DNA of 58,681 nucleotides from Candidatus Azambacteria bacterium (GTDB lineage Bacteria; Patescibacteriota; Minisyncoccia; GWC2-36-17; M10-OD1-4), in contig JALTWS010000019.1 of the NCBI GenBank assembly GCA_027048495.1, forward strand, positions 1 to 58,681, given 5' to 3'. The notes beneath the pieces are model-generated. The model was not told the origin of the DNA. It saw nothing but the letters and a program-made list of their open reading frames with translations, and did no database searches. Shown piece after piece: positions 46,239-58,600 of the stretch (positions are counted from its first letter, which is position 1; every line of letters starts with the position of its first letter). The position numbers and the translations under genes are program-made.

Positions 46239-46649
46239 AAAACAGATCAAGGCAAAAAGCGCAATCGCCTGAGCTTTTTTAAAAAAGCAGGGGAGGAAAG
46301 TCCGGACACCTATTTTCGCTTTTTGCGAAATAAACGCAGCGGCTAACGGCCGTCGCACTAGCAGTCAGGCACTAGTTGCTGGTTGCTGGTGTAGAGGTGC
46401 GAACAGAGACGCCACGAGCCGAAAGGCAAGTGGGCTCCAACTTGGAGTAGTCCTTGTGGCAACACAAGGGGTGAAACGGCTAAATCCTTGCGGGGTGCAA
46501 GACAGTATCCTGGCGCCTTTTGTTTTTACAAAAAAGGTGCTGGGGGTGGTCGCATGAGCTTGCCAGTAATGGCAAGCCAAGATAAATGATTGCGGCTTTG
46601 CGTCAGCAAAGTACAGAATCCGGCTTACATTTTTGTCTTGATCTGTTTT
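46239..46649 (+). ncRNA. rnpB: RNase P RNA
   Basis: GAGGAAAGTCCGG...ACAGAATCCGGCTTA signatures; P1 aaacagatcaaggcaaaa/ttttgtcttgatctgttt. Confidence 0.96.
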
Positions 46650-55555: not shown

Positions 55556-55593
55556 TTACTTAACTTTCTCACGATCGTGAGAAAGTTAAGTAA
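55556..55593. repeat. Perfect 38-bp CTCACGATCGTGAG-centred palindrome
   Basis: ttacttaactttctcacga|tcgtgagaaagttaagtaa. Confidence 0.88.
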
Positions 55594-55683
55594 AAGTTGG
55601 TTTGTGTAATGGTATAATTGACTTTGCTTTGAAAAAGTGCTTTTATTTTTATGGTTTTGCTCATTTACAAAAAGGAGGAGTTT

Positions 55684-56175
55684 ATGTTTTTTTCTATTGA
55701 TAGTTGGTTGGTTAACATGCATGAGAGGCTTGCATCTGAGTTTCAGGCAAAAACAAAAAAAGACTGCTTTTTTTTGGCTAGATTTTGCTTGTTGTTTTCG
55801 TTGGTTTGCTTTTTTGTTTCAATGGTTTATCTTAGCGGTTCTTTTTTGAAAGCTTTAATATATTCTTTGTTTGTTATGTTTATTGGACTTTCTGCTTGGA
55901 ATGATGTTTCTCGCTCAGAAAAACAGGCAAAACAAGAGATTGGGTATATGAACAAAAACAAAAAAGATTTGTTTTTTGCAAGAGTCTTTTTGCTTTGTTT
56001 TTTTGCATACGTGTCAGTTGTTCTTTATCTTTTTTCGGAGCTTGAAGTTTTTTTGGTTTTGTGCTTTTTTATGTATATTTCCAGCATATATTTTGCATCT
56101 TGTGATATGTTTCCTCCAAAGCAAAAAAAGCAAGCAAAAATTCAGTATTTTGCTTTCAAAACAACAACCGTATAA
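55684..56175 (+). CDS. Hypothetical membrane protein
   Basis: AAGGAGGAG SD; about 4 TM segments. Confidence 0.7.
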   Translation: MFFSIDSWLVNMHERLASEFQAKTKKDCFFLARFCLLFSLVCFFVSMVYLSGSFLKALIYSLFVMFIGLSAWNDVSRSEKQAKQEIGYMNKNKKDLFFARVFLLCFFAYVSVVLYLFSELEVFLVLCFFMYISSIYFASCDMFPPKQKKQAKIQYFAFKTTTV

Positions 56176-56176
56176 T

Positions 56177-56214
56177 AAAACCCCCAAAGCCTGTTGGCTT
56201 TGGGGGAGTTTTTT
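56177..56214. terminator. Bidirectional terminator
   Basis: cccccaaagcc/ggctttggggg between convergent genes. Confidence 0.8.
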
Positions 56215-56392
56215 ACTTTTTTTCTTTGTCCTTTATTTCTTCTCTTACTATTTTTACATTGGGGGGAGCTTTTATTGATATTCTTGCGCTGTTTTTTTGA
56301 ATTTTTACCACTGTTACTATGATTTCATTTTCTCCTTCTCCAATGATGATGCTTTCACCCGGTCTTCTTGTAAGAACTAAAAATCCACTCAT
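56213..56392 (-). CDS. csrA: Carbon storage regulator CsrA/RsmA homolog (59 aa, not in ORF track)
   Basis: MSGFLVLTRRPGESIIIGEGENEIIVTVVKIQKNSARISIKAPPNVKIVREEIKDKEKK matches CsrA pattern L.LTR..GE.I.IG...V.V......RI.I.AP..V.I.REE; SD AAGGAGGA. Confidence 0.9.
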   Translation of the reverse strand: MSGFLVLTRRPGESIIIGEGENEIIVTVVKIQKNSARISIKAPPNVKIVREEIKDKEKK

Positions 56393-56506
56393 TGGATTTA
56401 TCCTCCTTGGATTTGATTTGCCACATTAGATTATAATAGCAAAACATTAGTGTTAATGTTGACATATTTTGTTTTTTATGTTAGAAAAATTTAAGTTGTT
56501 CATTTC

Positions 56507-56705
56507 TCGGAAAGGTGATGCTGGCAGTTTTTGCAGGACGGATGCAGGATGCGAGTATGTCTGTTTTTGCGAGCTCTTAGGCTTGCATAAGAGAGCAATT
56601 ATTAATCCTCTTATTTTAAAGACCAGGGGCTAAAATCCCTGGCTGCTCTCCGGACAGAGGCGCCTGCAGGCGCTGTAAGAACAAAAGCATTGCCTTTCCG
56701 AACCA
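56507..56705 (+). ncRNA. Candidate multi-helix ncRNA divergent from csrA
   Basis: 16-bp and 10-bp long-range helices with G-U pairs, several inner hairpins, TTGACA upstream, terminator downstream. Confidence 0.65.
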
Positions 56706-56711
56706 AATTTC

Positions 56712-56750
56712 AAAACCTCGCTTGCTAAAGAAGCGGGGTTTTTCTTTTTT
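56712..56750 (+). terminator. Intrinsic terminator
   Basis: aaaacctcgctt/aagcggggtttt plus T-run. Confidence 0.8.
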
Positions 56751-56794
56751 TGGTCTTTGTTTTTTGTAAAATTTATGTATAATCAATCATAAAT

Positions 56795-58600
56795 ATGAAC
56801 GAAAAAGACAAGCAAAATTTAATAAGAAACTTTTGTATTATAGCTCACATTGATCACGGAAAATCTACGCTTTCTGACAGATTGCTTGAGGAGACAAAAA
56901 CGATTGAAAAAAGAAAGATGCAGGATCAGCTTTTGGATACCATGAGTTTGGAAAGGGAAAGGGGGATAACAATAAAAATGCAGCCGGTGGTTATGAATTA
57001 CAAGCACAAAGATGGCAAAGAATACATTTTAAATTTAATAGACACCCCCGGGCATGTTGATTTTTCTTATGAGGTTTCCCGTTCGCTTGCGGCAGTTGAA
57101 GGAGCAGTTTTGCTTGTTGATGCAACCAAAGGTATGCAGGCGCAAACCCTTGCGGTGCTTGAGCAGGCGCAAAAGCAAAACTTAAAGATACTTCCTGCTG
57201 TAAACAAAATTGACTTGCCAAATGCAATGCCAGAAAAAGTAAAAGAAGAGATAGCAAATTTTCTTAATATAGATAAAAATGATGTTTTGGAAATATCGGG
57301 AAAAACTGGAAAAGGAGTGCCTTTGCTTTTAGAAAAAATAATAAGCGAGATTCCAGCTCCCAAAGGCAATCCAAATTCTCCGCTTAAAGCGCTTATTTTT
57401 GACTCTGTTTTTGATTCTTTTAAGGGTGTAATAGCAAATGTTAGGATAGTGGACGGTTTTGTAAAAAGGCATGATAAAATAAAGTCTATGATTTTAAAGT
57501 CAGAAGCCGAAGTTTTAGAGTGTGGAGTATTTAAGCCAGATTTAATTGAAAAGCCAGAACTTTTAACAGGGCAGATAGGGTATATTGCAACTGGACTTAA
57601 AGAAATAGACAAGGTAAGGGTGGGAGATACTATAACACTAAAAAACAATCCGGCAGAAAAAAACCTTCCCGGATATAAAGAAGTTCAACCTGTTGTTTTT
57701 GCTTCTTTTTTTCCGCAGGATGCTGACGATTATGATCTTTTAAGAGACGGTCTTTTGAAGCTTAGGCTGAATGACTCTTCTTTGTCTTTTGAGCCGGAAC
57801 AGTCCGAAGCTTTTGGCAGGGGTTTTCGTTGTGGTTTTTTGGGCATGTTGCATATGGACATTGTAAGAGAAAGATTAAAAAGAGAACATAACATAGAACC
57901 GCTAATAACTATACCCTCAGTATCTTACAGTATATTGCTAAAAAATGGAGAAGAGAGGCTGGTTTATTCTCCGTCTCAGATGCCTGATCCTGCAAATATA
58001 AAAGAAAGCAGGGAGCCTTATGTAAAGCTTGAGATAATGACAAAAAGCGAATATCTGGGGTCTATTATGACTCTTTTGGATAAAGTTCGCGGAGTTTATA
58101 AAGACACACAATATTTAACTGAAGAAAAAGTTTTGCTTGTTTATGAAGCTCCTTTGTCTGAGATTATCGTTGATTTTTTTGATGATTTAAAGTCGGTAAC
58201 CTCAGGATACGCTTCTTTAAATTATGAGCTTTTAGGTTTTAAGCCTGCTGAGCTTGTAAAAATGGATATACTGGTCGCAGGGGAAAGAGTGGAGGCGCTT
58301 TCAAGGATTGTAGTAAAAAGCAAGGCTCAAGAGATTGGAAGAATGATGGTGTCAAAACTAAAAGATATAATACCAAGGCAGCTTTTTGCTGTGTCTTTGC
58401 AGGCTGCGGTTGGATCAAAAATACTGGCAAGAGAAGATATATCTGCCCTAAGAAAAGATGTAACTGGATATCTTTATGGTGGAGATGTAACCAGAAAAAA
58501 GAAGCTTTTGGAAAAGCAAAAAAAAGGAAAAAAGAAAATGAAACAAAGAGGAAAAGTAAATATTCCACCAGAAGTTTATTTTAAGGTTTTGAAAAAATAA
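56795..58600 (+). CDS. lepA: Elongation factor 4
   Basis: IRNFCIIAHIDHGKSTL, GFRCGFLGMLH, YGGDVTRKKKLLEKQK. Confidence 0.99.
   Translation: MNEKDKQNLIRNFCIIAHIDHGKSTLSDRLLEETKTIEKRKMQDQLLDTMSLERERGITIKMQPVVMNYKHKDGKEYILNLIDTPGHVDFSYEVSRSLAAVEGAVLLVDATKGMQAQTLAVLEQAQKQNLKILPAVNKIDLPNAMPEKVKEEIANFLNIDKNDVLEISGKTGKGVPLLLEKIISEIPAPKGNPNSPLKALIFDSVFDSFKGVIANVRIVDGFVKRHDKIKSMILKSEAEVLECGVFKPDLIEKPELLTGQIGYIATGLKEIDKVRVGDTITLKNNPAEKNLPGYKEVQPVVFASFFPQDADDYDLLRDGLLKLRLNDSSLSFEPEQSEAFGRGFRCGFLGMLHMDIVRERLKREHNIEPLITIPSVSYSILLKNGEERLVYSPSQMPDPANIKESREPYVKLEIMTKSEYLGSIMTLLDKVRGVYKDTQYLTEEKVLLVYEAPLSEIIVDFFDDLKSVTSGYASLNYELLGFKPAELVKMDILVAGERVEALSRIVVKSKAQEIGRMMVSKLKDIIPRQLFAVSLQAAVGSKILAREDISALRKDVTGYLYGGDVTRKKKLLEKQKKGKKKMKQRGKVNIPPEVYFKVLKK

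What the first reader, a model, noticed from the sequence alone, without database searches (positions are those of the whole stretch)
56213..56750. Unannotated CsrA homolog back-to-back with a ~200-nt structured RNA: candidate compact Csr-type module in a CPR bacterium
Seen: an intact 59-aa CsrA/RsmA-like ORF (minus strand, 56392-56213) that keeps the N-terminal LTRR and the R of VREE, below the ORF-track cutoff. About 115 bp away on the other strand is a non-coding folded unit with CAGGACG (56534-40), CAGGATG (56545-51) and a hairpin-loop CCGGAC. Known: CsrA binds GGA in hairpin loops and SD sites, and is titrated by CsrB/RsmZ RNAs with CAGGA(U/A/C)G repeats. Inference: a linked regulator/antagonist pair in a reduced genome. 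Caveat: only 5 GGAs, some paired, so it is not a classical CsrB.
Basis: partly seen in the sequence, partly recalled or inferred. Interest (0 to 1): 0.85.

Follow-up and report, generated by a model that had tools for sequence, protein, structure and literature searches.

The report
Orphan CsrA gene beside orphan RNA
A tiny uncultured bacterium carries a genuine but lineage-unusual copy of the RNA-binding regulator CsrA next to a strongly folded small RNA gene of no known family, but nothing testable so far shows that the RNA is the regulator's decoy.

Summary
The 59-aa ORF (56213-56392, minus) is a real CsrA: Pfam PF02599 E=1e-17, with hits to solved CsrA structures. About 100-115 nt away, on the plus strand, lies a real RNA gene. 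It has a perfect -35 box, an extended -10 and an intrinsic terminator. Folding gives -108 kcal/mol, z=-7. It is single-copy and matches no Rfam family.

The decoy reading is not supported:
- GGA is not enriched: 5 observed against 3.65 expected, P=0.29.
- No GGA lies in a hairpin loop in the best fold or in 2000 sampled folds.
- A covariance model of the RNA found nothing in 60 relatives or 156 csrA loci.

csrA itself is sporadic: 0 of 40 relatives and 5 of 400 genomes of the class carry it. Both genes sit in a spacer between a membrane-protein ORF and lepA that the nearest relatives lack. One relative without csrA has a different orphan RNA at the same site.

Most likely these are two lineage-specific genes in a fast-turnover spacer. 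A functional pairing remains possible, at about 0.2.

The parts
56213..56392 (-). csrA coding sequence, 59 aa
   Evidence: ORF. Pfam PF02599 E=1e-17. PDB CsrA chains E=4.7e-8 to 6.6e-6. No differences in the strain variant of run X2.
56381..56432 (-). csrA leader. The SD AAGGAGGA (56402-56409) and the start codon lie inside a predicted weak stem, AAAUCCA/UGGAUUU. Candidate self-binding site for CsrA.
   Evidence: Sequence read. Fold of -9.8 kcal/mol. Autoregulation is inferred, not shown.
56433..56462 (-). promoter-like site for csrA (TCAACA, 18 nt, TATTAT, with TG before the -10)
   Evidence: This is a consensus match only.
56459..56487 (+). promoter-like site for the RNA: TTGACA (56459-56464), 17-nt spacer, extended -10 TGT-TAGAAA (56479-56487). 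Its -35 overlaps the csrA -35.
   Evidence: Read from the sequence. The scanner missed it because it requires T at the last -10 position.
56507..56705 (+). core of the structured RNA: a closing rod of about 43 bp (P1-P4) and a three-way apex. Hairpin loops are CUUA, AUUUUA and CUAAAA.
   Evidence: No Rfam match at E<=10. Single copy in the genome.
56534..56551 (+). GGA cluster CAGGACGGAUGCAGGAUG on the 5' strand of the rod. It is paired in the full-length fold. In the nascent 66-156-nt transcript GGACGGA forms the loop of a 7-bp hairpin.
56712..56752 (+). intrinsic terminator of the RNA
   Evidence: 12-bp stem followed by a T run.
56181..56206 (.). bidirectional terminator shared by the membrane-protein ORF (+) and csrA (-)
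56776..56797 (+). lepA's own extended -10 (TGTATAAT) and start codon. The promoter is conserved in relatives that lack the RNA.

Best explanation
These are two real but separately evolving lineage-specific genes in a variable spacer of a Candidatus Azambacteria-like genome.

(1) csrA encodes a CsrA-family homodimeric RNA-binding protein. By family knowledge it binds GGA motifs at or near Shine-Dalgarno sequences and blocks translation. Its own leader places the SD (AAGGAGGA) and AUG inside a GGA-bearing stem-loop, so self-repression is likely (inferred). The genome has no FliW and no flagellin, so the usual non-gammaproteobacterial partner is missing.

(2) The divergent gene makes a very stable rod-shaped RNA of about 200 nt (about 250 nt with its terminator) with a three-way apex. 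It belongs to no described family and is not built like a CsrB/RsmZ sponge. I read it as an independent orphan small RNA. Its only long single-stranded stretch is the AU-rich apical loop AUUAUUAAUCC (about 56592-56602); the UCUU that follows it closes a weak 4-bp hairpin in the predicted fold. If the RNA acts in trans, it would most likely do so through that loop (inferred, weak).

The adjacency most likely reflects accumulation of inserts in the murJ-lepA spacer rather than a dedicated regulator/decoy pair.
For: - CsrA membership.
- No FliW or flagellin in a genome that is 98.6% complete.
- csrA is sporadic: 0 of 40 relatives, 5 of 400 other genomes of the class, 37 of 400 of the phylum. The best homologue anywhere is 60% identical.
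- The RNA is real and strand-specific.
- It is not a repeat: single copy, whereas three GC-rich hairpin repeat families exist elsewhere in the genome.
- It is not sponge-like: GGA 5 against 3.65 expected (P=0.29), 0 of 3 apical hairpin loops with GGA, and 0 of 2000 sampled folds with a GGA in a hairpin loop.
- The spacer is variable. G001 has murJ, a homologous membrane ORF and lepA. G002 and G012 have murJ directly followed by lepA. G003 has murJ, a different single-copy structured RNA (z=-5.1) and lepA, without csrA.
- The RNA model finds no relative in 60 genomes or in 156 csrA loci.
Against: - csrA and the RNA are both missing from the syntenic relatives, so they could have arrived as one unit.
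- Their -35 boxes overlap back to back, which would couple their transcription.
- The two CAGGAYG words resemble high-affinity CsrA sites (resemblance recalled, not tested). They are the only such close pair in the genome.
- In the nascent transcript, GGACGGA is displayed in a hairpin loop.
- The independent function I propose for the RNA has no direct support. There are no homologues, so no covariation, and no expression data.
Confidence: 0.5

Rival explanations
1. A compact Csr-type module. The RNA binds and titrates CsrA through the 5' GGA cluster (CAGGACGGAUGCAGGAUG), one dimer per RNA. Binding would occur on the nascent transcript or after the rod is remodelled. The overlapping divergent promoters would balance regulator and antagonist.
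For: - The two genes sit together in a stretch absent from relatives.
- The -35 boxes overlap.
- This is the only close CAGGAYG pair among 67 in the genome.
- The nascent 66-156-nt RNA shows GGACGGA in the loop of a 7-bp hairpin.
- No FliW is present to serve as antagonist.
Against: - The GGA count is at chance level (P=0.29).
- All 5 GGAs are in stems or internal loops, and none is in a hairpin loop in 2000 sampled folds.
- Opening the cluster costs about 17 kcal/mol.
- One site per RNA cannot sponge efficiently.
- No similar RNA is found beside any of 156 other csrA genes, 35 of them from the same phylum.
- A relative has an orphan RNA at this site without csrA.
Confidence: 0.2
2. The folded unit is a decaying or selfish insert, a remnant of a mobile or phage-derived element. 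It is transcribed or not, but has no function for the cell.
For: - It is an orphan: no homologue in 60 relatives and none by BLAST in 40.
- The genome holds several families of GC-rich hairpin repeats.
- A 30-nt stretch just upstream of the RNA resembles the lepA promoter region just downstream (73%), as after an insertion.
- The apical hairpin's 20-mer recurs in one phage family's intergenic hairpin.
Against: - It is single-copy.
- It has a perfect -35, an extended -10 and a strong terminator.
- The 25.6 kcal/mol advantage of the plus strand, with 9 G-U pairs, points to selection at the RNA level.
Confidence: 0.15
3. It is a leader or attenuator of lepA. Transcription from the upstream promoter would read through the structured RNA, and the terminator would tune lepA expression.
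For: It has the same orientation as lepA and lies immediately upstream, with a terminator between them. G003 has the same layout.
Against: lepA keeps its own conserved extended -10 downstream of the terminator, including in relatives with no RNA. Most of the 90 lepA loci examined have spacers under 190 nt. No alternative antiterminator pairing was seen.
Confidence: 0.06
4. It is a highly diverged housekeeping RNA (6S or SRP RNA) that Rfam models miss in this clade.
For: Rfam 6S, small SRP and large SRP models find nothing in this genome. The small SRP model finds nothing above its cut-off in 20 relatives. Those RNAs are therefore unaccounted for.
Against: - There is no 6S or SRP hit on this stretch, even at E<=10 in a 3-kb search.
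- No hairpin loop is a GNRA tetraloop, and the 3' side has no unpaired stretch facing the 5' junction region. That a GNRA tetraloop marks SRP RNA domain IV and a two-sided central bubble marks 6S RNA is recalled.
- The RNA is absent from same-family genomes with 79-84% identical LepA. A housekeeping RNA would still be recognisable there.
Confidence: 0.04

Closest known systems
CsrA/RsmA/RsmE family translational regulators (Pfam PF02599; solved structures 1y00, 2bti, 2jpp)
   Same: Full-length match to the family profile. The N-terminal LxLTRR strand and the V-x-I-x-REEI strand align with the solved proteins. The size is similar at 59 aa.
   Different: It has a 3-residue insert (GEG) after the second strand and a very short lysine-rich tail where the C-terminal helix would continue. 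It is at most 60% identical to any protein in 1.8 billion representatives. It sits in a lineage where csrA is rare, and in a genome without FliW or flagellin.
CsrB/CsrC/RsmX/RsmY/RsmZ decoy RNAs of Gammaproteobacteria
   Same: It is a stand-alone, promoter- and terminator-bounded non-coding RNA. It carries two CAGGAYG words like the repeats of those decoys (the resemblance is recalled).
   Different: The decoys display many GGAs in hairpin loops. Here there are 5 GGAs at chance frequency, none in a hairpin loop, embedded in a 43-bp rod. No Rfam decoy family matches.
Orphan structured RNA in the murJ-lepA spacer of the same-family genome G003 (L010:1097-1254)
   Same: Same site and orientation upstream of lepA. 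It has its own terminator and is single-copy. It has a long closing stem with a three-way apex, and a GAGA...UCUCCG stem next to the junction.
   Different: There is no detectable sequence homology. The model scores it at 15.6 bits, no better than unrelated hairpins at 16.0. It is shorter at about 158 nt. G003 has no csrA.

Membership tests
CsrA (PF02599) | Significant full-length match to the family profile | tested here: met
   E=1e-17, 64.3 bits against a cut-off of 27, profile positions 2-51 of 53. In the genome search, 62.9 bits.
CsrA (PF02599) | Conserved RNA-binding residues on the first and last beta-strands. The list of critical residues (E. coli L2, L4, R6, R7, V40, V42, R44, I47) is recalled. 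| tested here: met
   In the alignment to the E. coli and Yersinia chains, L, L, R, R, V, I (for V42), R and I occupy these columns.
CsrA (PF02599) | Interleaved homodimer that binds GGA-containing RNA | not tested
   No fold or complex job was run. Binding needs a bench assay.
CsrB/RsmZ-type CsrA decoy RNA | Many GGA motifs, enriched over composition | tested here: not met
   5 observed against 3.65 +/- 1.63 in 5000 shuffles, P=0.29.
CsrB/RsmZ-type CsrA decoy RNA | GGA motifs presented in hairpin loops or single-stranded linkers | tested here: not met
   The hairpin loops are CUUA, AUUUUA and CUAAAA. None of 2000 sampled structures has any GGA in a hairpin loop. Only the nascent 5' fragment shows GGACGGA in a loop.
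CsrB/RsmZ-type CsrA decoy RNA | Match to a described decoy family | tested here: not met
   No Rfam family reached E<=10 on the RNA core.
CsrB/RsmZ-type CsrA decoy RNA | Co-occurrence with csrA across genomes | tested here: inconclusive
   No relative has csrA or the RNA. Of 156 csrA loci from elsewhere, none holds a similar RNA; the best hits are E=1.5-5. None of those CsrAs is more than 58% identical to this one.
CsrB/RsmZ-type CsrA decoy RNA | GGA-dependent binding of CsrA | not testable with these tools
   Needs EMSA or a similar assay.
6S RNA (RF00013) | Match to the covariance model, a rod with a two-sided central bubble, and conservation in relatives | tested here: not met
   No hit in the genome or on the stretch at E<=10. 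The junction has no unpaired 3' side. Not found in the 3 same-family genomes searched.
Repeat element (MITE-like) | Several copies per genome | tested here: not met
   One copy in 803 kb. True repeat families in this genome have 3-6 copies.

The most novel reading that the evidence does not exclude
This would be a self-contained two-gene Csr system acquired by a minimal CPR genome that lacks FliW. CsrA would be paired with a single-site antagonist RNA whose GGA hairpin (GGACGGA loop) is exposed only while the RNA is being made or after its rod is opened. The RNA would then act as a kinetic or conditional trap rather than a multi-site sponge. Because CsrA overproduction is generally harmful, such a pair could even behave like a protein-toxin/RNA-antidote module.
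Probability: 0.15. Interest if true: 0.7.

Novelty: new member of a known kind. Interest (0 to 1): 0.33.

Why it matters
Outside Gammaproteobacteria, CsrA is mainly known to be controlled by the protein FliW. A FliW-less, non-flagellated, 0.8-Mb genome that keeps a CsrA raises two questions: what the protein regulates, and what restrains it. If the neighbouring RNA were its antagonist, this would be the smallest and most portable Csr circuit known, and the first in the CPR. On present evidence it is a well-founded annotation (a missed csrA gene) plus an uncatalogued orphan structured RNA. That is useful for annotating these genomes, but it is not a demonstrated circuit.

Tried and rejected
- Rfam on the stretch at E<=10, and on the whole window at gathering score: only RNase P at 46249-46643.
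- Rfam 6S, small SRP and large SRP in the genome: nothing. My own SRP domain-IV pattern scan, with motifs recalled, gave no convincing candidate. Twenty GC-rich non-coding stretches of the genome gave no informative Rfam hit.
- BLAST of the RNA in 40 relatives: only 19-46-nt matches to the terminator or short words.
- Covariance model R1 (built from this one sequence): 0 of 60 relatives. Over 93 csrA loci and 7 lepA loci there were 0 hits. Over 63 more csrA loci there were 4 hits at E=1.5-5.
- The closest homologue, P0003, could not be placed on any contig in genome contigs or metagenome contigs. A two-sequence profile found 36 metagenome loci, none over 57% identical and none with the RNA.
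- Exact word searches: a 21-mer of the GGA cluster gave no hit in genome contigs. A 20-mer of the apical hairpin gave 8 viral contigs that are all one phage family's intergenic hairpin, with no similarity beyond about 45 nt. A degenerate GGA-cluster pattern gave 4 unrelated viral hits.
- Upstream regions of 6 other csrA genes with long spacers: only one (L171) is strongly folded, and that is the gene's own GGA-bearing leader on the coding strand.
- Sequencing runs: no RNA holder listed. Three DNA runs of one study hold the locus.
- The strain variant (X2) has 14 differences in 1735 nt: 10 in the membrane ORF, 0 in csrA, 1 in an internal loop of the RNA. That is too few to show constraint or covariation.
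- Homology between this RNA and G003's RNA could not be settled. The score is 15.6 bits against 16.0 for an unrelated hairpin, and the MAFFT alignment is unreliable in the centre.
- A 13-nt match between the RNA's 3' arm and csrA codons 4-8 (D4) was judged chance, as one of six similar repeats in 800 AT-rich bases.
- Earlier notes of this scan held nothing on this genome's locus or on look-alike sequence. The word search returned other genomes' GGA-hairpin candidates, which did not bear on this case.
- Literature: two full-text searches (CsrA with Patescibacteria; CsrA with Candidate Phyla Radiation) found no paper on a CsrA partner RNA in CPR. In PMC9938205 I read one passage, which lists csrA among highly expressed genes of ultra-small groundwater prokaryotes.

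Full report
**What is there.** The minus-strand ORF 56213-56392 encodes 59 aa. It matches Pfam CsrA over nearly the whole profile: E=1e-17, 64.3 bits, cut-off 27. It is the only CsrA-family match above the cut-off in the 803-kb, 98.6%-complete genome. Against solved structures it aligns with E. coli, Yersinia and Pseudomonas CsrA/RsmE chains at E=5e-8 to 7e-6. The LxLTRR strand and the V-x-I-x-REEI strand are kept. There is a three-residue insert after the second strand and a short lysine-rich tail. A strong SD (AAGGAGGA) precedes the ATG. The gene is intact and plausibly functional.

**The RNA.** On the plus strand, 56507-56705 folds into a rod of about 43 bp capped by a three-way junction. 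With its flanks the energy is -108 kcal/mol, z=-6.99, and 0 of 200 shuffles fold as well. It is followed by an intrinsic terminator at 56712-56742. It is preceded by TTGACA, a 17-nt spacer and TGT-TAGAAA (read). The scanner missed this promoter only because it demands a final T.

The plus strand folds 25.6 kcal/mol better than the minus strand and uses 9 G-U pairs of 69. That argues for an RNA rather than a DNA palindrome. GC is 49% against 33% for the genome, as for tRNAs and RNase P in this genome. It is single-copy, whereas the genome holds three families of GC-rich hairpin repeats with 3-6 copies each. No Rfam family matches, even at E<=10.

**The organism.** The nearest LepA relatives (83% and 70% identical) are titled Candidatus Azambacteria. 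Genomes of the group are 0.5-1.4 Mb. The CPR assignment holds. The DNA occurs in three runs of one study labelled hydrothermal vent metagenome.

**Tests of the Csr-module idea.**
- (a) *Motifs.* The core has 5 GGAs against 3.65 +/- 1.63 expected (P=0.29). The hairpin loops are CUUA, AUUUUA and CUAAAA. All GGAs lie in stems or small internal loops. In 2000 Boltzmann samples no GGA ever lies in a hairpin loop. Forcing 56533-56551 open costs about 17 kcal/mol.
- *Motif points in favour.* The two CAGGAYG words are the only pair within 30 nt among 67 in the genome. In the first 66-156 nt of the transcript, GGACGGA sits in the loop of a 7-bp hairpin until the 3' strand is made.
- (b) *Partners.* The genome has no FliW and no flagellin.
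- (c) *Distribution of csrA.* It is found in 0 of 40 relatives, 5 of 400 other genomes of the class and 37 of 400 of the phylum. Those CPR proteins are only 32-55% identical to this one. The best hit in 1.8 billion representatives is 60%. Viral contigs hold many CsrA genes: 196 of 210 candidate stretches, at most 51% identical.
- (d) *Distribution of the RNA.* No BLAST match to the core in 40 relatives. No covariance-model match in 60 relatives. Nothing significant in 156 csrA loci: 35 CPR, 5 other genomes, 80 viral and 36 metagenomic.
- (e) *Expression.* No RNA run is listed, so this stays open.

**Synteny.** G001 has murJ, a membrane ORF 29% identical to the window's ORF 55651-56175, a terminator and lepA. 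G002 and G012 have murJ directly before lepA. csrA plus the RNA therefore occupy about 540 bp that are specific to this lineage, which is the best argument for a joint origin.

Against that, G003 (same family, no csrA) has its own single-copy structured RNA with a terminator in the same spacer and orientation (z=-5.1). It has a similar rod-plus-three-way-junction build. The model scores it at 15.6 bits, no better than an unrelated hairpin, so homology is open. Either way, the spacer hosts orphan RNAs without csrA.

A 30-nt stretch just upstream of the RNA resembles the lepA promoter region just downstream (73%). This hints that the RNA unit may have been inserted on its own. Of the 90 lepA loci examined, most have short spacers.

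**Strain variation.** Run X2 holds a variant with 14 differences in 55566-57300. Ten are in the membrane ORF, none in csrA, one in the promoter spacer, one in an internal loop of the RNA (56526) and two in lepA. This is too few to show constraint or covariation.

**Verdict.** The RNA is a real, uncatalogued, orphan structured RNA. Every computable criterion for a CsrB-type decoy fails, and co-occurrence cannot be assessed because no relatives carry either part. I put about 0.5 on two independent lineage-specific genes in a fast-turnover spacer, with CsrA acting as an SD-occluding repressor that probably also represses itself. I put about 0.2 on a true CsrA-RNA partnership of an unusual single-site kind. 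The rest is split between a functionless insert, a lepA leader and a diverged housekeeping RNA.

**Literature.** Two full-text searches found no report of a CsrA partner RNA in CPR. One passage of PMC9938205 lists csrA among highly expressed genes of ultra-small groundwater prokaryotes.

Noticed in passing
L010:1097-1254 (+), genome G003, murJ-lepA spacer: Another single-copy, terminator-ended structured RNA (z=-5.1) at the same site and orientation as the window's RNA, in a genome without csrA. It has no Rfam match. Homology to the window's RNA is unresolved (15.6 bits).
   Followed up: partly
G000 contigs outside the window: C26:3840-3990 and relatives on C33, C11, C21, C38; C45:8200-8345 and relatives on C28, C16; C10:5321-5410 and relatives on C38, C14, C28: At least three families of GC-rich elements with long AT-rich inverted ends (MITE-like hairpins), 3-6 copies each, in a 33%-GC, 0.8-Mb genome.
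   Followed up: partly
whole genome G000 and 20 relatives: Rfam 6S, small-SRP and large-SRP models find nothing in G000. The small-SRP model finds nothing above its cut-off in 20 relatives, although controls ring. The SRP RNA of this clade seems to escape the standard model or this search.
   Followed up: partly
window 56619-56640; L290-L297: The RNA's apical hairpin (GACCAGGGGCUAAAAUCCCUGG, 22 nt) is identical to an intergenic hairpin of one family of uncultured phages, seen in 8 contigs at one locus. There is no similarity beyond about 45 nt. This may be chance or a shared terminator-type hairpin.
   Followed up: partly
window 55651-56175 (+); likely start 55684: A membrane-protein ORF without a Pfam match. 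It is only 29% identical to its G001 counterpart and carries 10 of the 14 differences between two co-occurring strains. It is a fast-evolving surface or membrane protein.
   Followed up: partly
window 56467-56496 and 56749-56778: A 30-nt direct repeat (73%) brackets the RNA gene. The RNA's promoter region resembles the lepA promoter region. This may be a footprint of an insertion or a duplication.
   Followed up: no
window 46249-46643 (+): Bacterial RNase P RNA class A, 131 bits. It is the only Rfam family above gathering score in the window.
   Followed up: no
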